Assembly (NCBI RefSeq): GCF_945873775.1
Contig: NZ_CAMCEC010000005.1
Location: forward strand, 63,770-127,769
Direction: 5' to 3'
From: an uncultured Treponema sp.
GTDB taxonomy: Bacteria > Spirochaetota > Spirochaetia > Treponematales > Treponemataceae
DNA length: 64,000 nucleotides
Shown here piece by piece: positions 1 to 15,886 of this stretch. Made by a program: the position numbers and the translations under genes. The notes under the pieces were generated by a model. It searched no databases. It worked only from the letters and a program-made list of their open reading frames with translations, and was not told where the DNA came from. The stretch's first letter is position 1. Every line of letters starts with the position of its first letter.

Positions 1-1303
1 GTGGTGGCGAAGAGCGCCATCTTCGGAAGCATGTTCTCGTAACGCTTCCAGAGTCCTTTTTCGTTTTTGTGCTGATTCACAAAGCTTTCCACCGCATTGG
101 AGACAAAGCTCTGCGTATGGACGTTCGCATAGTCATCGATAAGAGTTTTCTTGAGATAGCCGGAATCAATCGCCTCCTTCAATCCGTATTCATAGACAAC
201 TTCTGGCATCAGGCGGTTTTCGATATACGGCGTTCCTGTAAAGTTGTAGCAGGCGACAACCTTTGTTCCTGCCGCGTCCAGTTCTTGAACAAGTCCGTCA
301 ATCGTAAGTCGCAGGCTTGTTTCCTTTGTGCGGTCGAGCATATCGTTTTTCAGGGATTTCCCGAAAGCGTGGTGCGCCTCATCGACGTAGATTCCAAGCT
401 GCCTTAGCCGGGTGAGTTTCTGGTAACGCTGGTTCGCCATCAGGGAAGAATCGTCATCGAGCATATAAAGGTCGGCGTTCGGGCTCTCGCGGATTGCGTC
501 TTCCCAGGAATCCTTGAAAAGCAGGTTCTCTGCCGAATCTTCCTTGCGCTTTTTCTTGAGAATGATTTTCTGCGATGTGGAGATGATCAGGTTGAAGTCC
601 GAGCCGTCCATTGTGCTGAGCGCGGCTCCGTCCTCTTCAAGAAAATGGAACTTGATGATTGTATCCAGCTCGTTGGCGTATTTTTCGGTAAAGACCTTTG
701 CCTTATCAAAAGTCTGGATTTCCTTGAGCGACTGCAAGACCGTCGTGTCCGGCGCGAGCACCAGCGCATTGTGGCAGAAACGCTCATCCTTCGGGTATTT
801 ATGGGCAAGCAGAAACTCATAGAAGATGCACAGCGCCATCAGGATTGTCTTTCCGGTTCCCATGGTGAGCGCAAAGATGTAGTTCGCATATTCCTGCCGT
901 AAATCCGAAAGCTGTTCAAAGAATGAAATTAGCGTGTCGCGGTTCGTCGTGTCCAAGACAGAGAAAAGCCCATCGCCGTAATAATGGCTATTGTCGAAAG
1001 TGAACGGAACAGCCGCATTCTCGTTCGCACCTTGAACCATGCGGTTTTTCCGCCAGTCATCGAACAGGTCGGCCAGGCGCGGATTCCCCAGATATTCTTT
1101 TAGGAACACATACATTTCAAACGCCTCGTACTGCGGCTTCCTCAAAAAGGCGTTCGGATTGTCCTTGCGAGGCTCGGCATTTGCAAGAATTGTGCGTGTA
1201 AGATTCGTGTACGATTTTCTGATTTCCTTTTTGTTTGCCGAATAGAACTGCCACATAATGCGGTAGAACGGAAAATCGATTGAGTTTTTTTTGACTTCGC
1301 CAT
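1..1303 (-). pseudogene. res: Type III R-M restriction subunit (DEAD-box helicase), 5' part; frameshifted at an A8 tract after codon 4-6; runs off the window edge
   Basis: Long open frame from ~1284 to the window edge contains LTMGTGKT (Walker A), VDEAHH (motif II) and NFTGTP (motif III). ATG at 1303 has a GGAGG RBS and a TAATG overlap with the upstream ORF, but it is one base out of frame unless A8 (1285-1292) is A9. Confidence 0.85.
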
Positions 1304-3229
1304 TATTTTTCCTCCGCCTGAACCGTGCATTCCCAGGATTCGCTGATAAGGTCGGTAATCTTTATATGGATTGCACCGGCCGTTTCTGGAATATCGTATT
1401 CGCCTTTTACCAGCGCGTTCTTTTCCGGGATGTCGGTGAGGGACGGGCTGAACGTTACGCCGTCGTAGTTCCAGTCGATGAACACGCTTTCGGCAAGCTC
1501 CTTCCAGTCGCTCACGTCGGTCTTTTCGATGCTGAGCTTCTGCAGCAGGTTCATCGGGAAAAAGTTCTCGATGACGAGTTTTCTTCCCTTGACTACAACT
1601 TTTGCGTCGCTGTCTCGCTTGAAGCGCAAATCCTTCTTGTCACGCAAGAGGTCGATGATTTCAAGGTCCACCCGGAATCCCATCTTGTCCGCTTCCTCTT
1701 CAAACTGCGCTTTTAAATTCGGGTCGTGCCCCATGCACACAAAGGTTATCGCTTCGACAGGCTTTGCAGGATTTTCCTTTTGCCTCTCCTGCCACACGGA
1801 AATATCCACGTTGGAAAGCAGCCTGGCGAACTCGCTTGCGGTGGCAATTCGGTTGATTCCGAGAATGCACACCTTGCGGCCGTCGAGCAGCGCGTCATAG
1901 ACATTGCTGTCGGTGAGCTGCTCCATGCCCATCGCTTCGCAGATAAGGCGTTTGGCTTCCAGCTCGTTGCGGAAGAATTCGTAGTCGTTTACGTTATAGA
2001 CTTCAAAGCCTGTGTAGAAAGTGCCGGTACGGTCTGGGGATTCCCGTGTCGGGGCACGGGAATGACATTTCGTAGAAAGGGTTCCGTTTGAGGGATCAGA
2101 GGGGGGGGAAGCCTTCCCCCCCCTGCGTCGCACTTCGTTGCGCCGACACCCCCGCAACGCCCCCGTCATTCTGCGAAAACAGCGTGTCATTGCCGGGCTT
2201 GACCCGACAATCTATCTCCTTCGCCGCTTTCAGAAGCCGTTTTGTGGTGGTCTGGATGGCGCCCAGGTTGATGTCCGCGCCGATAAAGCGCCTGCCGAGC
2301 TTCATGGCGACCGCCTGCGTGGTGCCGCTGCCCATAAAGCAGTCGAATACGAGGTCTCCGGGATTGGAAGATGCCTTGATAATGCGTTCGAGCAGGGCTT
2401 CGGGCTTTTGGGTGGGGTAACCAAGAAATTCTTTACTTGCAGATTTCGTTGTAGAACTCTGTCCAATTTCCCAAACATCATCTGCTTTCTTTTCGTAAAA
2501 CATTTCATAGATTAGGCTACCATCAGGATTTCTTGCTGAAACCAACTTTCCTAATTCTGAAGACCAAATGCGTTTATCACGTTTAGTCGGTTTATCAAGA
2601 GGAATCATAATTGTATTTGCAACAAAACAATTCCCTTTTTTGAACCAAAGGATATTATTGTGATTTGTAGCAAAACCTTTTACATTTCCCTGAAAATTAT
2701 CCGCATAATGCCAAATTATTTCATTCACAAAATTTTGATTTCCGAATACTTCATCAAGAAGTAGTCTCAAATGCCCGCTCTTATGCCAGTCGCAGTGCAG
2801 ATAAATGCTTCCGTTGTCCGCCAAAAGTTCCCGGCACAGAATCAGGCGCTCGTACATGAACTGCAGGTATTCGTCGTTTGTCCAGATGTCGCCGTACTGC
2901 TTTTCCTCGAACGTGGTGCTGTCGGTTTCCGCACTTTTTCCGCGCAGCTCAATCTTCTTCTTGTAGTCCGCCTTGGAATCAAACGGCGGGTCAATGTAAA
3001 TCAGGTTCACCTTGCCCCGGAAGTTTTTTAGCAGGTGGCTCATCACCTGCAGGTTGTCGCCCCAGTAGATTTTGTTCCGCCAGCCGTCCACGTCGTCTCC
3101 GTATCTTTCCTTCAGCTGCGCCGGATAATAGGGCGTGCCGGTAAAGGGGCGCTTTCCCGTCCATCGCAGTTCCGGGTAGCCGCGGATCGGCTCGTAGTTG
3201 AATTCAAAAAGTTCTTTCTGGTCAGTCAT
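1303..3229 (-). pseudogene. mod: Type III R-M methyltransferase subunit (N6-adenine MTase), split into 2096..3229 and 1303..2190 by a frameshift at G8/C8
   Basis: Has IYWGDNL, IYIDPPF, YPTQKPEALLERII and DCFMGSGTT...GADIN motifs. The second frame continues FYTGFEVYNVNDY and ends directly at res. Deleting one base in G8 or C8 (2101-2123) fuses the frames. Confidence 0.85.
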
Positions 3230-3239
3230 GTTTTCCTCG

Positions 3240-6206
3240 TTAAATGTTTTTTCCGCAATAGAATCTGAAGTCGCATTCGGCGCACTGGGCGGGGGCGCAT
3301 TTTCCGCTGCGTGTAAAGTTTTTTCGTTCTATTTTGTGAACAACCTCGTCCACTTCACTGATTGTTTTTTCCACGGAGCTGTTTTCATATCTGTAGCTGA
3401 TTACCGGATTTTCATCGCTTGTGCCTGTGTAGAATAGGTTCAGCCGGCTGATTTCCTTTCCAGTACGCTCATGGAGAATCTTTGCATAGATTTCGAGCTG
3501 ACGGCGGTATTGGGAAAGCCGTTCCTTGCTTTCCTCGTTGTTTACATCTGGCTTTTTGCCGGTCTTAAAGTCAAGAATTTCATAAGTGCCGTCCGAGCCG
3601 CGCACAAGGTCGATTTTTCCTTCAAGAATGTAGTCTTCCTTTTGGAGAGTAACAGGAACTTCCGCCTCTTTTACTTTCTGCCAGTCGTCTTTTGCATAAT
3701 CCACATAGTTCTGAATATTCTTTAGCACAACTTTTAAACTGCTTTCTGAAAAATATGCGTTCTGTGCTTTTGAAATCTGCCGGTAGTTCTCTGCTAGCCA
3801 GAAGTCAATTTTTTCTTTGGTGATTTCGTTTGCCCTGCCTTCAAGAACTGTCCTGTGAATATCCTCGATTGTCTGATGGACAAGTGTTCCGAACAGAAAC
3901 GAGTTATTGCGCACCGGCATAAATTCCAGTTCTCTGTAAAACTTGTACTGCAAAGGGCAGGCTTCATACAAAAGAATATGGCTGGTAAATGAATATTCGT
4001 GCTTTATCTCGCTTGTTTTTACTTCTTCCAGAACTGGAATTGTGTTTCCGCTTTTGAACAGCTCTTCCCAGTCCGGCACATCGTTACATATAGAAGAAAA
4101 ATATTTTGAGGGGCAGTTGCGCTGCCGTTCCGCCCGGTTTCCTCGTGAAGTGTCAATGTCGCTCAATACAAGCAGATTCTGTGCGCGGCTGAATGCGGTG
4201 TAGTAGAGCCGCCAGAAATCAAAATACTTTGTGCGGTTGAGCGGCTCCCATGGTGTTTTTTGGTGATAGAAATTTGCTATGTCCTCATCAAGAGTGTCAA
4301 AATTCTTGCGTGGAGTTCTGCCAAGAGAAGTTACAACAGTTATGGGAAATTGTAATCCCTTTGACTGGTGAATTGTCATAAAGCTTATACAGCCGCTCGG
4401 AGTTGCCATGTCAAAGTCTTCGTATTCTTCAAGGCCGCCGTCATACAGAAAATGAAGGTAGTTTCCAAAAAACTGCTTCAGCACCCAGTACAGCTTCTTT
4501 TTTTCAGAGATGAAGACATTCACATTGAACATCGCTTCAAAACGTGTCAAAAGCTGGCTGAACTTTGCAAGATTGTAGCAGGGGCGCAAATCCTGCACAC
4601 CTGAATCAAGTTCCACATCAAGAAGCTCCTTGAATAGCGGAAACTGCAAAAGCTGATAGAACAAATCCGCAAATGCGTAGTCGGTGTTGTGTGTAAGGTT
4701 GTTCAGCTCCTTGAATTTCTGCGTCGCAAAAATCAGAAGTTTTTTGTGCTTTTCCTTGTCTTTTCTGATTTCATCTCCAAAAAATCTTGAGCAGTTCTCA
4801 TAATATGAATAAATATCATCTTGTTTTCGGCTGTCTGATTTTGGCTTTAAGACTTCCTCAATCAGATTTGGAAAGATGAACATATAAAAGCCCACTGCAA
4901 GACGGATTTCTTTACGCTCAAAAAACATATCGCTTCTGGGACTGAATGTGGGGATTCTGTGTTCTTCAAGATATTGCGCAAGAAAACGTGTGTTGTCATT
5001 TTTTACAGAATATGAAAGGACTGCAATCTGATTGTAGTTTTTTAGAATGTTTTTCTGACGTAATATGCTGATAAAATCTAAAACTTCCTTGCACCATGTT
5101 TCAACTTTTGCGTCTCCCATGACGCGGACCACGCCGGGATAGTTCTCCTGTTCCTCCGTGGTGTTTTTTGCATGAAGAATCGTCTTGTCATAGCGGAAAA
5201 CTTCTCCGTTTTCTCCTTGCCAGTCGCCTGAGCCGCCGTCCTTATCTTCAGCAAGCCATGGGGGTTTCATGTATTTGTTGTAGAAACTGATGATGTCTTT
5301 GTGCGAGCGGAAATTTCTGTTCAGCTCGATTTTTTTACATTCACCTTTTGAGAAATTTTCCTGAAAGCGCAAAATATTTTCTACAGTTGCGCCACGGAAA
5401 CGGTACAAAGCCTGGTCGTCATCGCCTACAACACAGATTCTGTTTTTAGGCGCGGCAAGCTTTAAAAGAATCTGCTCTTGAATACGGTTTGTGTCCTGGT
5501 ACTCGTCTATCATCAGATATTGGATTTTCCTGCGCAAATCATTCAAGACAAAATCGTCTTTTAAAAGTTCCCACATCATCGTCTGAATCAGCGAAAAATC
5601 CAAAGCATTTCGTTCGGAAAGAAGCCCTCTGTATTCTTTTGTGAGTGCGGCAAGAACTGGAAGCGTTTTACTCTCTGTGCAGGCGGAAAGTTTTTCCAGG
5701 TCAAGATTTTCTTCGCTTGGACGGCTCACAAGGGCCGCAATTTTTTTTGCAAAATTCCAGCCGAAATGTCCGCTTACAAGAGTGTCAAGATTTTCTATTT
5801 TATTGAACCGTTCTGAATTTTGAAAAATAAGATACTGCTTTTCAAAGTCATCAAGCACGCGGTAGTTTCTTTTTAGTGTTGTGTGGGCGCGGTATTCCTC
5901 AAGAATGTTCAGAAAAATCGAGTGGAGCGTGCCAATGTACATATCAGAAATATTGATTGTTATTCCAAGTTCATGGGCAAGAGAAGAAATTCGGCTCACA
6001 AGTTCCTTCGCCGCTTTTTCGGTAAAAGTCGCCACTAAAATGCTGGATGACGGAATACCCAAATCTGCGACAAGATGAATCACCCTGTCCACAAGCGTTT
6101 TTGTCTTTCCTGCTCCAGGGCCCGCAATTACAAGAAGCGGCTGTTCGGTGGTGAGGATAACGGATTGTTGCTCCTGTGTGGAGGCGGAAAAGTCTAAAAC
6201 TGGCAT
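3240..6206 (-). CDS. UvrD/REP-family helicase fused to a C-terminal PD-(D/E)XK (RecB/Cas4-like) nuclease
   Basis: AGPGAGKT, IDEYQDTN, VGDDDQALYRFRGA and MTIHQSKGLQF helicase motifs. C-terminal YEACP...GKIDLV...DFKTG...QLEIY...CAPAQCAECDFRFYC. Confidence 0.9.
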   Translation of the reverse strand: MPVLDFSASTQEQQSVILTTEQPLLVIAGPGAGKTKTLVDRVIHLVADLGIPSSSILVATFTEKAAKELVSRISSLAHELGITINISDMYIGTLHSIFLNILEEYRAHTTLKRNYRVLDDFEKQYLIFQNSERFNKIENLDTLVSGHFGWNFAKKIAALVSRPSEENLDLEKLSACTESKTLPVLAALTKEYRGLLSERNALDFSLIQTMMWELLKDDFVLNDLRRKIQYLMIDEYQDTNRIQEQILLKLAAPKNRICVVGDDDQALYRFRGATVENILRFQENFSKGECKKIELNRNFRSHKDIISFYNKYMKPPWLAEDKDGGSGDWQGENGEVFRYDKTILHAKNTTEEQENYPGVVRVMGDAKVETWCKEVLDFISILRQKNILKNYNQIAVLSYSVKNDNTRFLAQYLEEHRIPTFSPRSDMFFERKEIRLAVGFYMFIFPNLIEEVLKPKSDSRKQDDIYSYYENCSRFFGDEIRKDKEKHKKLLIFATQKFKELNNLTHNTDYAFADLFYQLLQFPLFKELLDVELDSGVQDLRPCYNLAKFSQLLTRFEAMFNVNVFISEKKKLYWVLKQFFGNYLHFLYDGGLEEYEDFDMATPSGCISFMTIHQSKGLQFPITVVTSLGRTPRKNFDTLDEDIANFYHQKTPWEPLNRTKYFDFWRLYYTAFSRAQNLLVLSDIDTSRGNRAERQRNCPSKYFSSICNDVPDWEELFKSGNTIPVLEEVKTSEIKHEYSFTSHILLYEACPLQYKFYRELEFMPVRNNSFLFGTLVHQTIEDIHRTVLEGRANEITKEKIDFWLAENYRQISKAQNAYFSESSLKVVLKNIQNYVDYAKDDWQKVKEAEVPVTLQKEDYILEGKIDLVRGSDGTYEILDFKTGKKPDVNNEESKERLSQYRRQLEIYAKILHERTGKEISRLNLFYTGTSDENPVISYRYENSSVEKTISEVDEVVHKIERKNFTRSGKCAPAQCAECDFRFYCGKNI

Positions 6207-6328
6207 CTTACATTTTTTAGGCGGTAGAACCGATTTTTATGCAGTAAAATACGGATAAACCCACCTTTTGTATATAATCGGACAGTCTAACCCACTTCTA
6301 TAGTTATTTAAACGGTTATTTTGACCTT

Positions 6329-6643
6329 ATGAATAATTATAAAAATGATTTTATAGATAACCTGATTTTTTACAGAACTCAAAAAAAAATGTCCCAGCTG
6401 GAGCTTTCAGGAATTTGTGATTGCGCAAAAAGCACGATTGGCGGAATCGAGTCAAGAAAAAATTTTCCTTCCTTTGAGCTGATTCTGAAAATAGCCTATG
6501 CGCTTGAAATCCACCCTGCAGACTTGTTCTTGCGGAATGCCAGCCAAAGCCGCAAGGAAGTGCGGAAATTCTTTGACGAGGAAGTTTCTGCAAAACTAAA
6601 GGAAATGGTTGAAAAAAGATTCCCTTTGGTAGAGTTTGAGTAG
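6329..6643 (+). CDS. XRE-family helix-turn-helix regulator
   Basis: RTQKKMSQLELSGICDCAKSTIGGIESRKNFPSFELILKIAYALEI is a typical HTH_3 pattern. Confidence 0.85.
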   Translation: MNNYKNDFIDNLIFYRTQKKMSQLELSGICDCAKSTIGGIESRKNFPSFELILKIAYALEIHPADLFLRNASQSRKEVRKFFDEEVSAKLKEMVEKRFPLVEFE

Positions 6644-6897
6644 TTTTTTCAATGTCTGTTCATTTTTTTAGCTAAAGATTATGTAGAGAAATTAGAAGTA
6701 AAGGGCAGTTTATGCCGTTGTTTTTGAAGGAATGTTCATAAATGAGCCGTGTCCGATGATTGTTCCTGCCTATGAGTATTTGCTGCACATTCTGAATTCC
6801 AAGCTGGAGAAATATTATATACGAAGTCTTGGCTTTACAAGAAACCGCAGCTGCTGAAACAATTTGTTTATTCATTCCTAAATTTCTTTAGAATGAA

Positions 6898-7119
6898 TCA
6901 ATCAGATAATTCATTTTCGATTAAATCTTCTGCCAGATTTTTATAGTCCAGATTTTCTATTCCATTTTCACCTGATTCAATTTGTTTTGCAAGTTTACTG
7001 GAATAATATTTATCCATGGCCTCCCGCAAATCTATTTTTAATGTTGCCGCAAGATAATTAATAATATCTGTTTCGAGATTCTGTTTATAAATTTCAGTTA
7101 AATCTTTTGAATTTGTCAT
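6898..7119 (-). CDS. Small helical protein, DUF3791-like
   Basis: Third gene of a coupled trio (4-bp overlap). DIINYLAATLKIDLREAMDKYYSS resembles DUF3791-type partners. Confidence 0.6.
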   Translation of the reverse strand: MTNSKDLTEIYKQNLETDIINYLAATLKIDLREAMDKYYSSKLAKQIESGENGIENLDYKNLAEDLIENELSD

Positions 7120-7601
7120 TTATTTTCAACCAAATAGGATTTTTCGAATTTTAAAACAGCAGGAATAATTCCTTGATTTACGATGCAGATTTGATCGTTC
7201 ATTTTATAATATCTCAATTCTTCTATGGTTCTTTTTTTATCCCATAAACCTCGGAAATACATATCCACTGTTTTAAATACATCGTCATTGGCAACATTTC
7301 CAATTATTATATCATAGGCTTCATTCAGATTGTCACCATTTCTGCATGCACATACAAAATCAAGCCATTTTTCATTCTCATTGTCGAACCTTAAAGTTCT
7401 GTACTGGGAAAAATCTTCAATTAGTGTATAAACATTTACTGTTGGTTTTCCGTTATACCGGGCGGCTTTTCTAGAAGCCCATTTTTCAGCCTGATTCTGA
7501 TAAGTGGTGATATAAAATCCTTTTCCGAAATCCAAATAGTTTTTAGAAAAAGAAACATCAGGACTCTGAATTTCCTTGTTGGAACCGTGGAAAACTGTCA
7601 T
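7116..7601 (-). CDS. DUF3990 family protein (ADP-ribosyltransferase-like fold suspected)
   Basis: FHGS...LDFGKGFYITT..QAEKWA...WLDFV...YDIIIGNVAND...QIC matches the DUF3990 pattern. Confidence 0.8.
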   Translation of the reverse strand: MTVFHGSNKEIQSPDVSFSKNYLDFGKGFYITTYQNQAEKWASRKAARYNGKPTVNVYTLIEDFSQYRTLRFDNENEKWLDFVCACRNGDNLNEAYDIIIGNVANDDVFKTVDMYFRGLWDKKRTIEELRYYKMNDQICIVNQGIIPAVLKFEKSYLVENK

Positions 7602-7816
7602 ACAGCAATTCCTTTTTCACGCACAAAGCCTGAAATATCTTCGGCTAAAGCCTTTTCTCCCTGCGTATGAAGCACATCGTAATATTTTATGATATAGTCG
7701 TCGAGTATTTTCGTTTTGTTCAATGTATGATAAACATCGGCAGGTGTCATGTGCCATTTTTTAGCAAGCTGATGTATCATAAAAATTGAAAATTCCATCT
7801 CAGTTTTTTTGCACAT
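7598..7816 (-). CDS. DUF3791 family protein
   Basis: FSIFMIHQLAKKWHMTPADVY..L....ILDDYIIKYYDVLHTQG matches the DUF3791 pattern. Has a GGAGG RBS. Confidence 0.8.
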   Translation of the reverse strand: MCKKTEMEFSIFMIHQLAKKWHMTPADVYHTLNKTKILDDYIIKYYDVLHTQGEKALAEDISGFVREKGIAV

Positions 7817-8046
7817 ACCGCACCTCCAAAAATATTCTTCTATAAGATAGCATAATTCTTACAAAAAATCATCCTTTAAATACCGCGTGTAATTACTGCA
7901 CTAATAGCCTCATTATTAGTTCAGTAATCAACATTCATTTAGTGCAGTATCGGTCTCCTTTTCACCGCATTAGTTAAATTTTATTGAACTTTTTGATTTT
8001 TATTCTTGACTTCTTATTTTTGTTATTGTATATTGTGTGTGTAGGT

Positions 8047-8136
8047 TCAAAATATTTGAATATTTTGATTTATTTAAGGTTTATACAAACCTTAAAAACG
8101 GATGAGTCAAGGTCTTGAGCGTAAGCGTACCTTGAC
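8047..8136. promoter_or_regulatory. Three consecutive inverted repeats upstream of the XRE-ImmA pair (putative operators)
   Basis: TCAAAATATT-TG-AATATTTTGA (8047-8068), TTAAGGTTT-ATAC-AAACCTTAA (8074-8095), GTCAAGGT-N15-ACCTTGAC (8106-8136). Confidence 0.5.
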
Positions 8137-8168
8137 CAGACGTATTTTATTAAAGACAGGGTAAAGAG

Positions 8169-8501
8169 ATGGGAAACGAGAAATTTATGGCGAGAGTCCG
8201 CGAGCTGCGAGAGTCTAGGAAACTTTCTCAGGAAGCTCTTGCCGATAAGGTAGGAGTGACAAAAAGCGGAGTCGCAATGTGGGAGACAAGGGGCGTTGTT
8301 CCAAGAAAAGAAACTCTTGAAAAAATCTGTGATGTTCTTGGAACAACAACTGACTATTTATTGGGCATAGGAGAAGTGAATGTTGCAAATGCAAAAATAA
8401 ATTCAATCCAGAGAGGACTCAGCAAGCTTGACGAAAAAGACCTTGAGCGTGCGGAAGGCATTCTGCGCCTCGCATTTACAGAAGCATTTGGAGGGGAATA
8501 G
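8169..8501 (+). CDS. XRE-family repressor (ImmR/CI-like)
   Basis: VRELRESRKLSQEALADKVGVTKSGVAMWETRGVVPRKETLEKICDVLGTTTDYLLG. Confidence 0.9.
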   Translation: MGNEKFMARVRELRESRKLSQEALADKVGVTKSGVAMWETRGVVPRKETLEKICDVLGTTTDYLLGIGEVNVANAKINSIQRGLSKLDEKDLERAEGILRLAFTEAFGGE

Positions 8502-9232
8502 TGAACGAAAAATTTTCAGCAGATTACAAGACAGACATAGAAGAGCGTGTGAATGAGATTTTGATTAAATCCCGCTTTGCAAAGGAATTTCCTTTAGACT
8601 GCTTTTTGCTTGTGGACGAAATTGGAAAAGAGATTGCAATTGCTCTAATGCCGTTCTCCTGGATAGAAGAGCATGGAATGAATGTGGATGATGTCATCAG
8701 TTCAAAGGACGCAGAAGCTGTCGAGTTTTGCGGAAGGTACATCATTTTCTACAATCAGAATATGCCTTCTGTCCGGATTGTATTCAGCATTGCGCACGAA
8801 ATCGGTCATATTGTGCCAGGACATGATATTGAGCATATTACAGAATACAGGAAGAAAAACGATTCAAGGTTCAAGGAGCTTTACGGGCAGAGCGAAATCG
8901 AGGCGAATTATTTTGCAGCTTGCCTTTTAATGCCGGAAGCCATAATAAACCGCCTGAAGTCGTTTGGCTGCTGCATAACAAAAGAGTTCTTGCAGACTTC
9001 TTTTGGAGTGTCAGAATCCGCATCTGAAATTCGCATAAAGACTTTAAGGCGGAATTCTCAAAGATATGTTTCTTATTGGACCAAGGACAAGTCTTTGGAC
9101 AATGCAGTTCTGCTGAAATTCGCTGATTTTATAAAAAAGATTTCTCCAAGACGAAAAAGCTATGAGGAAGAATACAGATATGAAGAGGAAATGCAGGAAG
9201 AGCGGAACAGATGGCTTGCAGAAGGATATTAG
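8501..9232 (+). CDS. ImmA/IrrE-family zinc metallopeptidase (DUF955)
   Basis: IFYN...RIVFSIAHEIGH (HExxH)...EIEANYFAACLLMP; GTG start overlaps the XRE stop codon. Confidence 0.9.
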   Translation: MNEKFSADYKTDIEERVNEILIKSRFAKEFPLDCFLLVDEIGKEIAIALMPFSWIEEHGMNVDDVISSKDAEAVEFCGRYIIFYNQNMPSVRIVFSIAHEIGHIVPGHDIEHITEYRKKNDSRFKELYGQSEIEANYFAACLLMPEAIINRLKSFGCCITKEFLQTSFGVSESASEIRIKTLRRNSQRYVSYWTKDKSLDNAVLLKFADFIKKISPRRKSYEEEYRYEEEMQEERNRWLAEGY

Positions 9233-9310
9233 CGGAAACTAAAGCCGATAGTATATTCGGCATAAAAATTAAAATAAAAAAGTCTGAAAACAGTTGCATG
9301 TTATGCGACA

Positions 9311-9406
9311 GGCAGCGGCTCCCAGACTTGACGGCATCAATAACGATACCAAATGTGGTTGTTTGATACTATCATTATTGATCCCCCGTATGCAAGAGCC
9401 GTTGCC
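9311..9406 (+). other. Structured leader or candidate cis-regulatory RNA
   Basis: GGCAGCGGCTC (9311-9321) pairs with GAGCCGTTGCC (9396-9406) and encloses ATCAATAA/TTATTGAT; it ends ~17 nt before a GAGGAGG RBS. Confidence 0.45.
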
Positions 9407-9438
9407 ACAATCTTCTATATTAGAGGAGGCAATGCCCT

Positions 9439-10209
9439 ATGGCAGCCAAATCAAATCTCATGGATTCTATTGAGAATCCTAACGGCCGTGTGTCTGTAAA
9501 GTTACAGCGCAACTATTTTTCAAAGGATTCTTCCGACAAGTATGTTGGAAGAATAGTCCGAAACACCCATACCGTCGGGAATGTCATTCAGCTTGTGGCG
9601 AACAAGGTTCCTCAGCTGGACATCGGCACGGTTTATTCCGTCTGCGATGCTTTTGAAAAAGTCATTGCAGAATCGCTTGGAGGCGGAAACTCTGTAAACT
9701 GCCTGAACCTTGGCGTGTTCTACATCGCCTGCAAAGGCTCAACTGACGGAAGCAGTTTTTCGCCGAACATCACGGTAAAATTTATTCCGTCAGAGCTTAC
9801 AAAGTCCGCAATCTCAAATGTTACGGTCGAGCATGAATCTTATTCTGAACCGGCTGCGACTATCAGCAGAATTGTTGACATTGACACAGGGGATGATGAC
9901 GGAAATCTTTCTTTGAACGGCTCTGTGCAGATTTCCGGCAAAAAACTTCTGATTGGAGGAGAGGGCGGCGGAATATGGTTTGCTCCAGCGTCTGGAGATA
10001 CGGCGGCTATTGACGAAAGCGGTGCGGACTGGATTCCAGTAACAGCAAAACTTTCCATAAACAAGCCCGGAACTCTGCTTTTTCCGTTGCCAAAGACGCT
10101 TTCTGCAGGCACGTACCGAATTGTGCTGAAAACAAGGTGCACTTCAAATTTGAAGTATGAGCGAAAGGAGCTTGTCTCAACAGTTTCAGACGCTCTTGTG
10201 ATAAAGTAA
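9439..10209 (+). CDS. HU-like DNA-binding domain plus DUF4469 (Ig-like) domain protein
   Basis: N-terminal VIAESLGGGNSVNCLNLGVFYIACKG (HU/IHF-like); C-terminal INKPGTLLFPLPKTLSAGTYRIVLKTR (DUF4469-like). Confidence 0.7.
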   Translation: MAAKSNLMDSIENPNGRVSVKLQRNYFSKDSSDKYVGRIVRNTHTVGNVIQLVANKVPQLDIGTVYSVCDAFEKVIAESLGGGNSVNCLNLGVFYIACKGSTDGSSFSPNITVKFIPSELTKSAISNVTVEHESYSEPAATISRIVDIDTGDDDGNLSLNGSVQISGKKLLIGGEGGGIWFAPASGDTAAIDESGADWIPVTAKLSINKPGTLLFPLPKTLSAGTYRIVLKTRCTSNLKYERKELVSTVSDALVIK

Positions 10210-10291
10210 TGCGCGTGCTTATCAGGACATTTGTTTTTTGAATTCTCCGACTAATTAACACTTGCATATTTGCAAAATCTTTTGCTAGACT

Positions 10292-10320
10292 AAGACCGTC
10301 ATTTTTGTGGCGGTCTTTTT
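10292..10320 (+). terminator. Probable intrinsic terminator
   Basis: AAGACCG...CGGTCTT hairpin followed by a T-run. Confidence 0.5.
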
Positions 10321-10357
10321 TATTGCTGACATTCTTAAAATTGACTGGAGAACTTTT

Positions 10358-11146
10358 ATGCCGATTATTACAAAGCCGAATTTTTTTGACGCAGATTATT
10401 TTTTTGTTTGCAAAGGAAATGAAATTCTAGTAAAGGACAATTCTTTAATTTCAAAAAAAGAATTTGAATTTTTTGCAAATGAAACTTTTTCAGACGACTG
10501 GTATATAGAAACAAATCTTTCATACAGCGCAGCCTTGGCAAAAGAAAATTGTTCACTTCCTGAAAACTGCAAATTTATTTCCGTCCGGCAATTCTGCTTT
10601 GAGCATAAAGAAACCGCATTCCCCGTTTCAAGAGCCGCAAGCATTTTAAAGCAAAGAAGCACATTTAAATTCTGCCCTTCATGCAAAGGAAAATTAATTG
10701 ATGACGAAACTGAATCCGCAAGAAAATGCCCGGACTGCAAAACAAAATTTTTTCCGCGGATAGAGCCTGCCACAATAACGCTCGTTTCCAAGAAAGATGA
10801 AATTCTTCTTGTAAAAAATAAAAATTCCGCATACAAAAATTACGCCTGCGTTTCAGGTTTTGTTGAACAAGGTGAAACTCTTGAGCAATGCGTCGCACGG
10901 GAAATAAAAGAAGAAACAAACATTGAAGTTCAAAATATAAAATACTGCGGAAGCCAAGCATGGCCGTTTCCAGACCAGCTCATGCTAGCGTTCACGGCGG
11001 AATACAAAAGCGGCGAAATAAAAATTCAAGAGTCTGAAATTCTTGAAGCCCGCTGGTTCAAAAGAAATGAACTTCCTCCAGAATCACAGTTGCCTCGTCC
11101 AGGTTCTGTAGCATGGAATTTGATAAATGGAATTTTTAAAAGCTAA
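10358..11146 (+). CDS. nudC: NADH pyrophosphatase (Nudix, zinc ribbon)
   Basis: FCPSC...CPDC...FPRIEPA; GFVEQGETLEQCVAREIKEE Nudix box; SQAWPFP. Start moved to the ATG after GGAG. Confidence 0.92.
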   Translation: MPIITKPNFFDADYFFVCKGNEILVKDNSLISKKEFEFFANETFSDDWYIETNLSYSAALAKENCSLPENCKFISVRQFCFEHKETAFPVSRAASILKQRSTFKFCPSCKGKLIDDETESARKCPDCKTKFFPRIEPATITLVSKKDEILLVKNKNSAYKNYACVSGFVEQGETLEQCVAREIKEETNIEVQNIKYCGSQAWPFPDQLMLAFTAEYKSGEIKIQESEILEARWFKRNELPPESQLPRPGSVAWNLINGIFKS

Positions 11147-11250
11147 AAAAGCAGAGTTTGACCACAGCAAAAAAAATATATAAAATAAAGAACATTTTCT
11201 AATTTTAATTTTTAGAAATGATTTTTTTGAAATTTCTACAGAGGAAAAAT

Positions 11251-12765
11251 ATGTCTGAATTTAATTTGATGAAACTGCAAAACGGAAGCGATGTGCGCGG
11301 AATTGCAATAGAAGGCGTTGAAGATGAGCACGTAAATCTTACAGACGAAGCCGCAAACTTAATAGGCCAGGCATTCGTTTTGTGGCTTGAAAAAAAATGC
11401 GGAAAAAAAGCAGCAGAACTTAAAATTGGAATTGGACGAGATGCCCGCATCACGGGAGAAAAACTTGCGCTTGCAGCCGCGGAAGGAATTTCTTCAACTG
11501 GAGCAAAAGTTGTAAGCTGCGGCCTTGCAACAACACCGGCAATGTTCATGTCAATTGTTTTTGACCAGACAAAGTTTGACGGCTCCCTTATGATTACTGC
11601 AAGCCATCTGCCATTCAACAGAAACGGAATAAAATTTTTCAATGCTGACGGCGGACTTGAGCACGAAGACATTGAAGAAATTTTAAAGACCGCGCAAAAT
11701 TTAAATCTGCAAAAAACAAATTCTCCATTCGCAGAAAACTTTGACTTGCTTTCAGTTTATGCAGAATATTTAAAGCAGACAATTTGCAAAGAACTGAATT
11801 CAACTGAATCAGAAAAGCCGCTTGCAGGATTAAAAATTGTTGTCGATGCAGGAAACGGAGACGCAGGATTCTTTGTAGACAAAATTTTAATTCCGCTTGG
11901 AGCAAACACAGAAGGAAGCGAATTTCTTGAGCCAGACGGAATGTTTCCAAACCACATTCCAAATCCAGAAAACAAACAGGCAATGCAGGCAATTCAAAAA
12001 GCCACAGTTCAAAACAAAGCAGACCTTGGATTGATTTTTGACACTGACGTTGACAGAATGAGCGCGGTTTTTCACACAGGCGAAGAAGTTAACCGTGATT
12101 CTATAATCGCGCTTTTTTCAGCTATACTTGCGCCAGATTTTCCGGGCAGCACTATTGTAACCGATTCAGTAACAAGCGACCGTTTAACTTTCTTCCTTGA
12201 AAAAAAACTTGGTTTAAAACATCTTCGCTATATGCGCGGATATAAAAATGTAATCGACAAATGCCGCGAACTTAATGAAAAGGGAATCGTTTCTCCGCTT
12301 GCAATGGAAACTTCTGGGCATGGAGCGTTAAAAGACAACTATTATCTTGATGACGGCGCTTTCCTTGCTGTAAAACTTATTTCGTCACTTGCAAAAGCTG
12401 CAAAAGAAAACAAAAAAATCGAAAGCTTTATTTCAGAACTTCCGCCTGCCGGAATTGAAGCGGAGTACAGATTTAAAATTAAGTCAGAAGATTTTAAGCA
12501 ATACGGAAAAAAAGTTCTTGAAGAATTCAAATCCCGTGCAACGAAAAACAACCTCGACCTTCCTGAAAATTTTGAAGGCGTGAGAATTTCTTTCCATGAC
12601 AAAAATGCAGAGGGCTGGCTTTTGCTGCGGCTTTCACTTCACGACCCTGTGATGCCGCTCAACATAGAAGGAAAAACTCAAAAAGACAAAGACGAAATTG
12701 TAAAAATAGCAAAAGAACTTGTTTCAGGCTTTGAATTGCTAGACACAAGCGTTTTAGACAACTAA
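11251..12765 (+). CDS. Phosphomannomutase/phosphoglucomutase
   Basis: NGSDVRG, ITASHLP (phospho-Ser), FDTDVDR and ETSGH motifs. Confidence 0.92.
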   Translation: MSEFNLMKLQNGSDVRGIAIEGVEDEHVNLTDEAANLIGQAFVLWLEKKCGKKAAELKIGIGRDARITGEKLALAAAEGISSTGAKVVSCGLATTPAMFMSIVFDQTKFDGSLMITASHLPFNRNGIKFFNADGGLEHEDIEEILKTAQNLNLQKTNSPFAENFDLLSVYAEYLKQTICKELNSTESEKPLAGLKIVVDAGNGDAGFFVDKILIPLGANTEGSEFLEPDGMFPNHIPNPENKQAMQAIQKATVQNKADLGLIFDTDVDRMSAVFHTGEEVNRDSIIALFSAILAPDFPGSTIVTDSVTSDRLTFFLEKKLGLKHLRYMRGYKNVIDKCRELNEKGIVSPLAMETSGHGALKDNYYLDDGAFLAVKLISSLAKAAKENKKIESFISELPPAGIEAEYRFKIKSEDFKQYGKKVLEEFKSRATKNNLDLPENFEGVRISFHDKNAEGWLLLRLSLHDPVMPLNIEGKTQKDKDEIVKIAKELVSGFELLDTSVLDN

Positions 12766-12876
12766 AAAAAATGTGGAATTTGCGTAAAAACCAGATTCCG
12801 CATTGACATAATTCATTTTTTTGTTCATAATTTAGTTCCCTGCGATATTTCGTTGGTGAGGATGGTGAACAAAGAC

Positions 12877-13089
12877 ATGGCAACAATCAATGTTGATGAG
12901 AATGAGAACCTCGAAAAGGCAATCAAACGCTTCAAGAGAATGGTTGAAAAAGAAGGTATTATCCGTGAATACAAAAAGCGTGAATATTATGAAAAGCCTT
13001 CTACAATCCTCAATCGCAAAAACAAATCATTGGCTCGTAAGCTTTTGAAAAAAAACCACAAGCCGCATGATTCTAAATCAGCTTACTAA
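12877..13089 (+). CDS. rpsU: 30S ribosomal protein S21
   Basis: [33 protein letters not shown]. Confidence 0.95.
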
Positions 13090-13099
13090 TTGTGATTGG

Positions 13100-13124
13100 A
13101 ACCCTGGAAATCTCCGGGGTTTTT
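13100..13124 (+). terminator. Intrinsic terminator after rpsU
   Basis: AACCCTGGA/TCCGGGGTT hairpin plus T-run. Confidence 0.6.
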
Positions 13125-13174
13125 ACATTTTAAAACAAGCAAATAAAATTTCAGTTTTTCAAAAAGAGGAGCTT

Positions 13175-13882
13175 ATGAAAATTCAGGACGACAATGAAAA
13201 TTACAGGCAGCTTTGCTTTAAATGTATGCGGCCAGTTTCTTCATGCTACTGCAAATATACAGCTCCTATAAACTGCGGAATAAAATTTGTTTTTCTAATG
13301 CATCCAAAAGAAGCTAAAAAACAACGCACAGGAACAGGACGTCTAGCTTCTCTTTGCCTTCCCGAAAGTGAAATTCTTATGGGAATTGATTTTACAAAAA
13401 ACAAGCGTCTTGAAGAACTTTTAAATGATCCGCAGTATTATCCAGTTTTGCTCTACCCTTCACCAGATGCCTGGACTTGCAGCAAAGAAGGATTCAAAGA
13501 AACAATACAAGGAAAAAAACTGCTTGCAATAATTGTGGATTCAACTTGGTTCTGCTCAAAAAAAATTCTTCGATACAGCACAAATATAAATTCTCTGCCG
13601 AAATTTTCATTCATCGGAAACTACAAAAGCATTTTCACTTTTAAACATGAACCGCAGGAATATTGCGTTTCAACAATTGAAACTTGCTACTATCTGATTA
13701 AAGAACTGCAGTCAACAGGAATTGTGGACAAAGGAATTTCACCAGAGCCGCTTATGACAGTTTTTAAACAGATGATAAAGTTTCAGCTTCAAAAAGAAAA
13801 CGACCGCATAGAAGGAAAAATTCCAAATAGCCATGCAAAAGACTGGAAATACACACGCAAAAAAGAAATTCCAAACTTCTAG
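13175..13882 (+). CDS. DTW-domain tRNA-uridine aminocarboxypropyltransferase
   Basis: CFKC...CYC, LMHPKE....TGTG, LLYP, VDSTW (DTW) and STIE motifs. Confidence 0.88.
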   Translation: MKIQDDNENYRQLCFKCMRPVSSCYCKYTAPINCGIKFVFLMHPKEAKKQRTGTGRLASLCLPESEILMGIDFTKNKRLEELLNDPQYYPVLLYPSPDAWTCSKEGFKETIQGKKLLAIIVDSTWFCSKKILRYSTNINSLPKFSFIGNYKSIFTFKHEPQEYCVSTIETCYYLIKELQSTGIVDKGISPEPLMTVFKQMIKFQLQKENDRIEGKIPNSHAKDWKYTRKKEIPNF

Positions 13883-13895
13883 CAGCCGAGTTTTT

Positions 13896-15020: not shown

Positions 15021-15135
15021 AAACACTCCTATAATTTTTTGATACGACAAGCGCTCTTGATATTTTTATTACCTAAAAATAAAAAAAAATGCATTGTGAT
15101 TCCATTTTTGCATAAAATTCATTAAACTTTTTTTT

Positions 15136-15882
15136 ATGGAATACAAATCATTTTTTGAAGAAGATAAAAAAATTTTTCATGCTCAGTCAAATATTTATTT
15201 CAGCCAATGCAATGCAAACAAAGACCTAAGCTTGCATGAGCTTTTAAAAATAACTTCTGATATTGCAGTTGAAGATTACAGGCAACGCGGAATGTCGCGC
15301 GAAATTCTTAAAGACAACGGATTTGGAATTCTTGTTTCAAGATGTTCGTATAGAATTCATCAGTGGCCAAAAGAAAATCAATTTATAGAAGTTGAAACTT
15401 GGGAAGAAAAACCGCAGGCTCTTCAGTTTATGCGCGGCTATAGAATTCTTGATGAAAATAAAAATGTCTTAGTTTCTGGAAAATCATCATGGCTTTTAGT
15501 CGATATAAATGAACGCCGAATTCTTCCACTAAAAAAATTCACGCTAAGAACTCCACCTGAGTTTTGCATTGAACTTAACTGCGACAAGCCGGATAAAATT
15601 CTTCAGCCCGAAAAAAGCGAGCTGTGGGACACACGGACAATAAAGTTTTCAGACTTGGATGCAAACGGACACACAAACAATGCAAGATATGCTGCATTTG
15701 TTGAAGATGCAATTCCAGAAGAATTCCGCGGAAGAAAGCCAAAAGACTTCAAAATAAATTTCGCAAAGGAAGCAATGCTAAATGATAAAGTAGAAATTTT
15801 TGGCTTTAAAGAGGAAAACAAAATAACTTTCCTTGGAAAAACTCCGGAATCAGTTTCCTTTGAAGCAATCATTTCATATTAA
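15136..15882 (+). CDS. Acyl-ACP thioesterase
   Basis: Two hot-dog repeats; DLDANGHTNNARY motif. Confidence 0.88.
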   Translation: MEYKSFFEEDKKIFHAQSNIYFSQCNANKDLSLHELLKITSDIAVEDYRQRGMSREILKDNGFGILVSRCSYRIHQWPKENQFIEVETWEEKPQALQFMRGYRILDENKNVLVSGKSSWLLVDINERRILPLKKFTLRTPPEFCIELNCDKPDKILQPEKSELWDTRTIKFSDLDANGHTNNARYAAFVEDAIPEEFRGRKPKDFKINFAKEAMLNDKVEIFGFKEENKITFLGKTPESVSFEAIISY

Positions 15883-15886
15883 AAAA

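What the first reader, a model, noticed from the sequence alone, without database searches (positions are those of the whole stretch)
6898..7816. Translationally coupled DUF3791-DUF3990-DUF3791-like trio: putative ADP-ribosyltransferase toxin module
Seen: three ORFs joined by 4-bp ATGA overlaps. The middle one has FHGS...FGKGFYIT. Established: H-G-[ST]...G-x-G-x-Y is the NAD-binding signature of PARP/diphtheria-type ART folds. Inference: an uncharacterised ART toxin with two small helical partners (antitoxin or sensor) acting as a TA or abortive-infection unit. Its island position supports a defence role.
Basis: partly seen in the sequence, partly recalled or inferred. Interest (0 to 1): 0.65.

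Follow-up and report, generated by a model that had tools for sequence, protein, structure and literature searches.

The report
Catalogued three-gene ADP-ribosyltransferase-like toxin cassette
Three tightly overlapping small genes encode an enzyme with the fold of NAD-using ADP-ribosylating toxins plus two small helical partners; the cassette is real, mobile and very widespread, but it is already listed as an untested phage-defence candidate (PADLOC PDC-M13), so it is a good bench target and not a new kind of system.

Summary
On the minus strand lie A (7816..7598, 72 aa, DUF3791), B (7601..7116, 161 aa, DUF3990) and C (7119..6898, 73 aa, no Pfam hit). They are joined by two ATGA overlaps, and B carries FHGS and FGKGFYIT.

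B is an ADP-ribosyltransferase (ART)-fold protein:
- DUF3990 is in Pfam's ART clan.
- A confident AlphaFold model (pLDDT 93.6) best matches the RES, ParT and MbcT toxins, then PARPs and phage ART-PolyVal domains.
- H5 (nearly invariant) and Y30, D97 and Q137 (invariant) stand out in 70 diverse relatives.

All three proteins hit PADLOC's PDC-M13 models. PDC-M13 is one of 145 unvalidated "guilt-by-embedding" candidates (Payne et al. 2024).

The A-B-C order recurs in about 150 of 160 fetched loci from at least seven phyla. The neighbours vary, and relatives sit on Bacteroidales plasmids.

Natural fusions (A+B, B+C, and a 149-aa C-like+A-like partner) tie the three proteins together and link C to DUF3791.

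Most likely this is a toxin-antitoxin-like or abortive-infection module in which A and C jointly restrain B. This is inferred, not shown: toxicity, target and defence are untested, and pseudogene patterns gave no clear signal.

It is a new member of a known, catalogued kind. Interest is moderate to low.

The parts
7598..7816 (-). Gene A: 72-aa DUF3791 protein, first gene of the operon. Proposed as one half of the neutralising partner.
   Evidence: Pfam PF12668 E 2.4e-19. PADLOC PDC-M13A E 1.3e-20. AF2 model pLDDT 88, a five-helix bundle with no PDB fold match (best E 4.1). Conserved motif ILDDYII..YDVLHT.G..YLVEDIT.
7116..7601 (-). Gene B: 161-aa DUF3990 protein with an ART fold. Proposed toxin or effector.
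   Evidence: Pfam PF13151 E 4.8e-50, with a sub-threshold ART-PolyVal hit at E 1e-3. PADLOC PDC-M13B E 3.9e-54. AF2 pLDDT 93.6, pTM 0.87. Foldseek PDB hits: RES toxin 9r35_D (E 1.7e-3, TM 0.49-0.53), ParT 6d0i, MbcT 6fkg, then PARP3, tankyrase, pertussis S1 and Arr. Foldseek BFVD hits: ART-PolyVal proteins. D24, F29, Y30, W79, D97, G101 and Q137 are invariant, and H5, S7, G26, G28, R87 and D106 nearly invariant, in 70 diverse sequences.
6898..7119 (-). Gene C: 73-aa acidic helical protein, a divergent DUF3791-like family. Proposed second half of the neutralising partner.
   Evidence: No Pfam, NCBIfam or PHROG hit. PADLOC PDC-M13C and PDC-M13B models at E 1.6e-5 to 4.5e-3. 185 homologues, none with a Pfam domain. 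pI 4.35, family median 4.5. Fused to the C-terminus of B in P0269, P0272, P0360 and P0363. The P0269 tail also hits Pfam DUF3791 at E 0.0048.
7817..7870 (-). Leader carried with the cassette: extended -10-like TGCTATCTT (7844-7852) and Shine-Dalgarno GGAGG (7823-7827).
   Evidence: Nucleotide homology to the cassette in unrelated contexts (L004, L005) ends at window 7870. Relatives carry TGnTATAAT-like boxes about 25-30 nt before the A start codon. Promoter function is inferred; the generic promoter scan did not list it.

Best explanation
This is a self-contained, horizontally mobile three-gene operon of the PADLOC PDC-M13 type.

B is a NAD+-using enzyme of the H-Y-[E/D/Q] branch of the ADP-ribosyltransferase superfamily. 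H5 sits in strand 1 and Y30 in strand 2. The third residue is most probably D97 at the start of strand 5, with the invariant Q137 also near the cleft.

The operon is transcribed from its own short leader. It is translated in a coupled, roughly stoichiometric way through the ATGA overlaps.

B is held inactive by the two small helical proteins A and C. These are distant paralogues that act together as a split version of the two-domain, 149-aa partner found in two-gene relatives.

The proposed trigger is loss of the restraint, through phage infection, loss of the cassette or plasmid, or turnover of the partners. B would then ADP-ribosylate an essential target (a nucleic acid or a translation or metabolic protein) or consume NAD+. 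That would stop growth, as in abortive infection or post-segregational killing.

Shown here: gene anatomy, family membership, ART fold, conserved NAD-site motifs, conserved synteny, mobility, and fusions among the three proteins.

Inferred: toxicity of B, neutralisation by A and C, the trigger, the target, and any defence phenotype.
For: Anatomy and coupling: (a 4-bp A-B overlap in 71 of 78 loci).

ART identity:
- Pfam DUF3990, which belongs to the ART clan (PMC7955679).
- AF2 model with pLDDT 93.6.
- Foldseek top hits are the TA toxins RES, ParT and MbcT, then PARPs, pertussis S1 and Arr, and phage ART-PolyVal proteins.
- H5-G-S7 and G26-x-G-F-Y30 align with the PARP1 HGS and FGKGIY motifs (the template sequence was recalled from memory, so this is a lead only).
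- Invariant residues are listed.

Toxin potential: DUF3990 forms the C-terminal toxin domain of T6SS Rhs effectors (PMC4524185; PMC10763514).

Partners act with B:
- An A+B fusion, P0332.
- B+C fusions in four representative clusters.
- The pBF9343 149-aa partner has a C-like N-terminal half (PADLOC E 3.5e-15) and an A-like C-terminal half (E 8e-17), and sits directly before DUF3990.

TA-like population biology:
- The same trio occurs at 57-91% B identity in Spirochaetota, Bacillota, Bacteroidota, Fibrobacterota, Planctomycetota, Riflebacteria and Desulfovibrionaceae bins, with unrelated neighbours.
- 86 plasmid records carry relatives, one of them beside an epsilon/zeta TA.
- 90 of 201 genomes of the host family carry DUF3990, with up to 8 copies.

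Decay patterns compatible with a toxin:
- B carries nonsense mutations while A and C are intact in L050 and L064.
- B carries G26E, G28E (three loci), H5Q or F29V at otherwise invariant positions.
- The only genome locus with a broken C also has B G26E.
- The window's own genome holds a PDC-M10 remnant in which the toxin's catalytic half is deleted and the partner is intact.

Local context: a variable R-M hotspot.
Against: - There is no experimental evidence for PDC-M13 or any DUF3990 protein in the searchable literature. PDCs are explicitly unvalidated.
- Fold similarity to solved ARTs is moderate (TM about 0.5, best E 1.7e-3). There is no sequence-level PDB hit.
- The third catalytic residue is unresolved (D97 or Q137). 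I could not read model coordinates.
- A shows no DNA-binding or known antitoxin fold, so classical type II autoregulation is unsupported.
- One isolate genome (L077) has a nonsense codon in A while B looks intact.
- Broken genes are about equally frequent in B and in the partners. In the genome loci the count is 2 versus 2. In low-coverage metagenome loci it is about 4 for B against about 5 for the partners (roughly 4 in C, 1 in A). This is not the clear asymmetry a strong toxin would predict.
- Most loci are not in defence islands.
- A-C homology is weak by direct profile comparison.
Confidence: 0.55

Rival explanations
1. It is a pure addiction or stabilisation (post-segregational killing) module of mobile elements and genomic islands, with no anti-phage role. 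It has the same toxin-plus-neutraliser chemistry, but it is selected because it keeps plasmids or islands in place.
For: Relatives lie on 86 plasmids (29 conjugative, 10 mobilisable), for example on pBF9343 beside an epsilon/zeta TA. Most chromosomal copies are solitary among housekeeping genes. In this window the cassette sits at the edge of a swappable R-M island that it could stabilise.
Against: The family was picked up because copies are embedded inside BREX, DISARM or type I R-M operons. Many TA modules do both jobs, so this reading is not exclusive of defence. No stability data exist.
Confidence: 0.2
2. B is a NAD+-degrading enzyme (a NADase or NAD+ phosphorylase like the RES toxins and MbcT), not a transferase. 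The module would kill or arrest by NAD+ depletion.
For: The best structural matches are RES-domain toxins, including MbcT.
Against: B lacks the R-E-S signature. It has the PARP, diphtheria-toxin and Arr-type H-G-S and G-x-G-x-Y motifs instead. It also carries a conserved helical insert (W79, R87) where ARTs hold their target-recognition loop. TM scores are only about 0.5.
Confidence: 0.15
3. B is not a toxin. It would be a benign or regulatory ART-fold protein (a detoxifying Arr-like small-molecule modifier, or a catalytically dead NAD/ADP-ribose binder), and A and C would be substrates, chaperones or regulators.
For: Arr is among the fold hits. An intact B with a broken A occurs in L077. There is no excess of broken B genes over broken partner genes. 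A has no antitoxin-like fold.
Against: DUF3990 is used as the toxic tip of Rhs T6SS effectors. The NAD-site residues are strictly conserved. The distribution is TA-like and multi-copy. Fusion and coupling with small partners is typical of toxin-immunity pairs. Recurrent G-to-E changes in the NAD loop suggest activity that is sometimes selected against.
Confidence: 0.1

Closest known systems
PADLOC phage-defence candidate PDC-M13, with the two-gene relatives PDC-M10 and PDC-M42 (Payne, Hughes, Fineran and Jackson, bioRxiv 10.1101/2024.01.29.577857)
   Same: All three proteins hit PDC-M13 models (E 1.3e-20, 3.9e-54 and 1.6e-5). The gene content is the same: DUF3791, DUF3990 and a small partner, contiguous and co-oriented. 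PDC-M13 is reported as abundant in rumen MAGs, with 3324 loci (PMC13356809). That fits this rumen- or gut-type Treponema host.
   Different: Nothing substantive; this is a member. The family itself is a prediction from 'guilt-by-embedding' and has no validated function.
RES-Xre, ParST and MbcTA toxin-antitoxin systems (ART-superfamily toxins that deplete NAD+ or ADP-ribosylate Prs)
   Same: They are the best structural matches of B. They share a small ART-fold toxin encoded next to a small neutralising partner, and they are mobile and plasmid-borne.
   Different: B has H-Y-[D/Q] motifs, not R-E-S. The partners are two roughly 72-aa helical proteins with no Xre HTH and no detectable ParS- or MbcA-like fold. 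There are three genes, not two.
CmdTAC (PD-T4-9) and DarTG: validated anti-phage ART toxin systems that modify mRNA or ssDNA
   Same: An ART toxin kept in check by co-encoded protein(s). CmdTAC is likewise tripartite and acts by abortive infection (PMC11618068, listed).
   Different: There is no PADLOC hit to PD-T4-9 or DarTG models. There is no SecB-like chaperone, no macrodomain or NADAR antitoxin, and no DarT domain. The target and trigger here are unknown.
DUF3990 C-terminal toxin domains of T6SS Rhs effectors (Serratia marcescens Rhs5, Enterobacter bugandensis RhsA) and phage ART-PolyVal domains
   Same: They share the Pfam family (DUF3990) or the fold (ART-PolyVal), in settings where the domain is a delivered toxin or effector.
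   Different: Those are domains of large secreted or injected proteins with unrelated immunity genes. Here the domain stands alone with DUF3791-type partners.

Membership tests
Pfam DUF3990 (PF13151), for B | Full-length match above the gathering score | tested here: met
   169.6 bits against a cut-off of 32.2; residues 1-146 match profile positions 1-147 of 152.
Pfam DUF3791 (PF12668), for A | Match above the gathering score | tested here: met
   69.5 bits against a cut-off of 25; full profile 1-60.
Pfam DUF3791 (PF12668), for C | Match above the gathering score, or significant profile-profile similarity | tested here: inconclusive
   No Pfam hit for C or for any of 24 homologues. hhalign of the A family against the C family gives E 0.008 and probability 4.8% over 64 columns. 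Bridges exist: the P0269 tail hits both the C-family HMM (3e-9) and Pfam DUF3791 (0.0048), and the pBF9343 'DUF3791' protein has a C-like N-terminal half.
ADP-ribosyltransferase superfamily (Pfam clan ADP-ribosyl) | Split beta-sheet ART fold | tested here: met
   AF2 pLDDT 93.6. Foldseek top hits are all ARTs: RES, ParT, MbcT, PARP3, tankyrase, pertussis S1, PltA and Arr, with TM about 0.5 and best E 1.7e-3. ART-PolyVal proteins match in BFVD at E down to 5.5e-5. Pfam lists DUF3990 in the clan.
ADP-ribosyltransferase superfamily (Pfam clan ADP-ribosyl) | Conserved NAD-site residues on strand 1 (H or R) and strand 2 (Y or S) | tested here: met
   H5 lies in strand 2-7 and Y30 in strand 29-32. 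Y30 is invariant and H5 nearly invariant in 70 sequences of 31-91% identity.
ADP-ribosyltransferase superfamily (Pfam clan ADP-ribosyl) | Third catalytic residue (E, D or Q) at the start of strand 5 | tested here: inconclusive
   D97 precedes strand 98-102 and Q137 lies in strand 136-140. Both are invariant. Neither the alignment to PARP1 nor the PDB profile search resolves which one is equivalent.
ADP-ribosyltransferase superfamily (Pfam clan ADP-ribosyl) | NAD+ binding and ADP-ribosyl transfer or NAD+ hydrolysis | not testable with these tools
   This needs biochemistry.
PADLOC PDC-M13 | Adjacent, co-oriented genes that each hit PDC-M13 models | tested here: met
   A hits PDLC04434 at 1.3e-20, B hits PDLC04438 at 3.9e-54 and C hits PDLC04444 at 1.6e-5. 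The genes overlap by 4 bp.
PADLOC PDC-M13 | Anti-phage activity | not testable with these tools
   The family itself is unvalidated.
Type II toxin-antitoxin module (generic) | Small co-transcribed genes with a patchy, mobile, multi-copy distribution | tested here: met
Type II toxin-antitoxin module (generic) | Antitoxin with a DNA-binding domain that autoregulates the operon | tested here: not met
   A and C have no HTH, RHH or AbrB Pfam hit. The A model has no significant PDB fold match. The inverted repeats at 7892-7949 lie outside the cassette boundary.
Type II toxin-antitoxin module (generic) | Toxicity of the toxin and direct neutralisation by the partner | not testable with these tools
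   Only indirect support is available: Rosetta-stone fusions and decay patterns. The decay patterns are not decisive.
RES-Xre / ParST / MbcTA | R-E-S catalytic signature, and an Xre-HTH plus toxin-binding-domain antitoxin | tested here: not met
   There is no RES Pfam hit. The motifs are H-G-S and G-x-G-F-Y. The partners lack an HTH and have no fold match to ParS, MbcA or Xre.
DarTG / CmdTAC | DarT or CmdT toxin family, with a macrodomain/NADAR antitoxin or a SecB-like chaperone | tested here: not met
   No such Pfam or PADLOC hits for A, B or C.

The most novel reading that the evidence does not exclude
PDC-M13 would be a genuine abortive-infection system of a new tripartite design. An H-Y-[D/Q] ADP-ribosyltransferase that modifies a nucleic acid or the translation machinery would be caged by a 'split' pseudo-dimeric neutraliser. 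Its two halves are A and the acidic C, which form one 149-aa protein in two-gene relatives, and they are encoded on either side of the toxin gene. One half would double as the phage sensor. Because the cassette is among the most abundant predicted systems in rumen and gut bacteria, this would add a major, previously unvalidated arm of gut-microbiome immunity.
Probability: 0.3. Interest if true: 0.6.

Novelty: new member of a known kind. Interest (0 to 1): 0.33.

Why it matters
The DUF3990/DUF3791 cassette is very common. It is present in 90 of 201 genomes of the host family, with up to 8 copies. A rumen survey counted 3324 PDC-M13 loci. Relatives sit on 86 plasmids, including the pBF9343 family of Bacteroides.

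Nobody has reported a function for it. A demonstration that B is an active ART toxin would turn a catalogue entry into a mechanism and add a new ART clade to bacterial conflict systems. So would identifying its target and learning how two small paralogous partners restrain or release it.

For this particular window the finding adds nothing categorically new. It is one more well-preserved member.

Three details may help experimenters:
- The evidence that A and C are two halves of one partner.
- The list of candidate active-site residues.
- The natural loss-of-function variants: G26E, G28E, H5Q and nonsense alleles.

Tried and rejected
- Sequence search of B, A and a 70-sequence B profile against PDB: no hits.
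- NCBIfam and PHROGs: nothing useful.
- Fold search of A against PDB, testing the idea that A resembles the ParS, MbcA or Xre toxin-binding domain or an HTH: no match better than E 4. Idea rejected.
- Direct A-versus-C comparisons: weak. Only bridging fusions support homology.
- Pseudogene asymmetry test (toxin broken more often than partners) over 160 loci: no clear asymmetry, and the low-coverage metagenome contigs are error-prone.
- Search for conserved neighbours or a dedicated recombinase: none. Neighbours are heterogeneous.
- Search for flanking direct repeats or target duplications around 6844-7870: nothing convincing.
- Rfam scan of 6200-8300: nothing. tRNA scan: none.
- IMG/VR scan: only distant DUF3990 relatives (45% identity or less), so this subfamily is not evidently phage-borne. 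GenBank phages: 6 distant hits.
- The first related-loci run failed because alignment A2 was too diverse. I redid it with A3.
Full report
**1. Observation**

Searches confirm three minus-strand ORFs at exactly the reported coordinates:
- A, 7816..7598, 72 aa
- B, 7601..7116, 161 aa
- C, 7119..6898, 73 aa

Both junctions are 4-bp ATGA overlaps (TCAT on the + strand at 7598-7601 and 7116-7119). B carries F-H-G-S (residues 4-7) and F-G-K-G-F-Y-I-T (residues 25-32).

Pfam assigns A to DUF3791 (E 2.4e-19) and B to DUF3990 (E 4.8e-50), with a sub-threshold ART-PolyVal hit for B. C has no Pfam hit.

C is nevertheless a real, conserved protein family:
- It has 185 homologues, none with a Pfam domain.
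- It has 19 invariant columns in a 24-sequence alignment.
- It is consistently acidic, with pI 4.35 and a family median of 4.5.

**2. What it is**

All three proteins hit the PADLOC models of one candidate system, PDC-M13 (A 1.3e-20, B 3.9e-54, C 1.6e-5).

PDC systems are the 145 'phage defence candidates' that Payne et al. derived by 'guilt-by-embedding' in BREX, DISARM and type I R-M loci. They were added to PADLOC without testing (bioRxiv 10.1101/2024.01.29.577857). Later papers still treat them as unvalidated.

A rumen survey counts PDC-M13 among the most abundant predicted systems, with 3324 loci (PMC13356809).

Pfam already places DUF3990 in the ADP-ribosyl clan (PMC7955679). DUF3990 also forms the C-terminal toxin domain of some T6SS Rhs effectors (PMC4524185; PMC10763514 and PMC12165300). 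I found no paper that characterises DUF3990 or DUF3791 experimentally.

**3. Fold and active site of B**

A 70-sequence alignment of diverse relatives (31-91% identity) came from an exhaustive HMMER search that found 3074 representative clusters at E <= 1e-3. It gave a confident AlphaFold model with pLDDT 93.6 and pTM 0.87.

Foldseek against PDB returned ART-superfamily proteins as the top seven matches and as most of the better-scoring ones:
- the RES toxin of the Xre-RES complex (9r35_D, E 1.7e-3, TM 0.49/0.53)
- ParT and MbcT
- then PARP3, tankyrases, pertussis S1, PltA and Arr

Against BFVD it matched phage ART-PolyVal domains.

The similarity is at fold level only. There are no sequence-level PDB hits.

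D24, F29, Y30, W79, D97, G101 and Q137 are invariant in the diverse alignment, and H5, S7, F25, G26, G28, T32, R87 and D106 are nearly invariant.
- H5 lies in the first strand and Y30 in the second.
- They align with the HGS and FGKGIY motifs of the PARP1 catalytic domain.
- The family therefore belongs to the H-Y-[E/D/Q] type, not the R-S-E or RES types. This classification is from my own knowledge of Aravind and colleagues' scheme.
- By topology the third residue is most probably D97, which sits immediately before the fifth strand (98-102), after a conserved helical insert that occupies the position of the target-recognition loop. The invariant Q137 at the start of the next strand is the alternative. 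I could not access model coordinates to settle this.

**4. The partners**

A models as a five-helix bundle (pLDDT 88) with no significant structural relative in PDB (best E 4.1). I therefore found no support for a DNA-binding antitoxin or for a ParS-, MbcA- or Xre-like toxin-binding domain.

Direct A-versus-C profile comparison is weak. It gives E 0.008 over 64 columns, with a shared C-terminal [YL]-L-[VA]-E-D-[IL] motif.

Natural fusions link all three proteins:
- P0332 is DUF3791+DUF3990.
- Four representative clusters have B with a C-family tail, at E 3e-9 to 2.5e-5.
- The tail of P0269 also hits Pfam DUF3791.
- On the Bacteroides fragilis plasmid pBF9343, the single 149-aa 'DUF3791' gene directly upstream of DUF3990 has an N-terminal half that hits the same PADLOC models as C (E 3.5e-15 to 1.8e-6). 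Its C-terminal half hits the A-type models (E 8e-17).

I conclude that A and C are distant paralogues. They work together as a split form of a two-domain partner and they contact B. The fused ORFs come from metagenome gene calls, so some could be frameshift artefacts.

**5. Distribution and mobility**

In 80 species-representative genomes, A-B-C occurs in the same order in 77.
- In the loci that hold all three genes, the A-B overlap is 4 bp in 71 of 78.
- B identity is 57-91%.
- The hosts include Treponema and other Spirochaetota, many Lachnospiraceae, Cytophagales, Saprospiraceae, Fibrobacter, Thermoguttaceae, Riflebacteria and a Desulfovibrionaceae bin. Some MAG bins may be mis-assigned.
- The 80 metagenome loci show the same order down to 43% identity.
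- Neighbours are heterogeneous: ABC transporters, uvrB, tsf, rpsB, rlmH and recombinases. Only a handful of loci carry relatives of this window's R-M, helicase or regulator genes.

Other distribution data:
- DUF3990 is present in 90 of 201 genomes of the host family, with up to 8 copies.
- Relatives are on 86 plasmids.
- Only distant relatives occur in phage collections.

Nucleotide homology to the same cassette in other contexts (L004 at 94%, L005 at 90%) runs from window 6710 or 6844 to 7870. The mobile unit is therefore the three genes plus a 54-nt leader. The leader carries an extended -10-like box (TGCTATCTT, 7844-7852) and a GGAGG Shine-Dalgarno sequence (7823-7827). Relatives have TGnTATAAT-like boxes at the same distance.

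**6. Local context**

- To the left of the trio in window coordinates (downstream of gene C, on the same minus strand) lie a ResIII helicase, a hypothetical gene, an N6/N4 methylase and a UvrD-PD-(D/E)XK helicase-nuclease (3..6206, minus strand), and then a small HTH gene.
- To the right, upstream of gene A and transcribed divergently, lies an XRE-ImmA/IrrE pair.
- A congeneric genome (G106) is syntenic at 92% from window 7893 to 17475. Left of that point it carries a different HTH-methylase-ResIII set plus an IS110 transposase and an integrase.
- The trio therefore sits at the edge of a swappable defence-type island.
- The 190 bp just past C (6663-6857, + strand) is a relic of the 3' end of a large type IIG-like methylase/restriction gene, which is intact in congeners. 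It travels with the cassette in L004. That fits the 'embedded in R-M' origin of the PDC set.

**7. Tests of the toxin-antitoxin logic**

In the genome loci:
- B carries nonsense mutations while A and C are intact in L050 and L064.
- B carries substitutions at otherwise invariant NAD-loop positions in six loci: G26E once, G28E three times, H5Q once and F29V once.
- The only locus with a broken C (L005) is the one with B G26E.
- L077 has a nonsense codon in A and an apparently intact B.

The window's own genome also holds an intact two-gene PDC-M10 locus. It further holds a PDC-M10 remnant in which only the last ~37 residues of the toxin survive next to an intact partner.

In the metagenome loci, broken B and broken partner genes are about equally frequent, and many of those contigs have very low coverage.

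Taken together these patterns are compatible with a toxin restrained mainly by C, or by A and C together. They are not decisive.

**8. Verdict**

Its interpretation is right in outline: an ART-fold effector with two small helical partners and TA- or Abi-like anatomy. However, the system is already catalogued (PDC-M13, Pfam ART clan), its function is untested, and the island argument is local and not general.

My best explanation is a tripartite toxin-neutraliser module in which A and C jointly cage an H-Y-[D/Q] ART. It would act in abortive infection and/or addiction (confidence about 0.55). The rivals are pure addiction, an NADase in place of a transferase, and a non-toxic ART.

Earlier notes of this scan on other genomes reach the same identification. 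I reached PDC-M13 independently and used those notes only to locate the Payne preprint.

Noticed in passing
window 6663-6857 (+ strand; short ORF 6732..6857): A relic of the 3' end of a large type IIG-like N6-adenine methylase/restriction gene (…PCPMIVPAYEYLLHILNSKLEKYYIRSLG…). The gene is intact in congeners (L151: a 616-aa open frame ending …GMFVNAPCPMIVPADEYLLHILNSKLADYYIRSLGVTRNGG…). The fragment travels with the trio: L004 has it twice, together with a truncated extra copy of gene C.
   Followed up: partly
window about 8069-8149, between the trio and the XRE gene: An approximately 80-nt element that folds into two strong hairpins (MFE -27.9 kcal/mol, z -4.3). It recurs at 81-95% identity, usually in about two copies, in many genomes of the same genus and family. 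It has no Rfam hit and no tRNA was found. It could be a small RNA, a repeated regulatory leader or a miniature repeat.
   Followed up: partly
window 7892-7949: Three copies or half-sites of TACTGCACTAA in inverted orientation (7894-7904, 7914-7928, 7939-7949). They lie just outside the cassette boundary, on the backbone shared with congener G106 and with L006. This looks like an operator, possibly for the divergent XRE-ImmA/IrrE pair (8169-9232).
   Followed up: no
G000:C14:13102-13530 (L001: 1489-1971 and 1943-2392): A second intact DUF3990 system in the same genome. It is of the two-gene PDC-M10 type (a 160-aa ART protein plus a 149-aa partner, PADLOC E 5e-87 and 3e-59) and lies next to a long-chain acyl-CoA ligase gene.
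   Followed up: partly
G000:C9:5926-6036 (L003: 1053-1611, minus strand): A decayed PDC-M10 locus. Only the last ~37 residues of the DUF3990 gene remain (profile positions 116-152), directly upstream of an intact 141-aa partner gene. This is an orphan-antitoxin-like arrangement.
   Followed up: partly
window 3..6206 (minus strand), compared with L095 9794-17289: A variable hotspot. This genome has ResIII, a hypothetical gene, an N6/N4 methylase and a UvrD-PD-(D/E)XK helicase-nuclease. The congener G106 has a different HTH, methylase and ResIII plus an IS110 transposase and a tyrosine integrase at the same chromosomal position. Synteny resumes at window 7893.
   Followed up: partly
L005 3990-4266, and L053, L076, L081, L078, L073 (gene B): Natural B variants at otherwise invariant NAD-loop residues: G26E (together with a stop codon inside gene C), G28E in three unrelated loci, H5Q and F29V. 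They may be ready-made attenuated alleles.
   Followed up: partly
L006 (contig CAVJSA010000080.1, labelled Lachnospiraceae) and L005 (labelled Desulfovibrionaceae): L006 shares about 6 kb (window 3240-9243) at 84-91% nucleotide identity with this Treponema window. L005 shares the cassette at 90%. Either the island moves between phyla or these MAG contigs are mis-binned.
   Followed up: no
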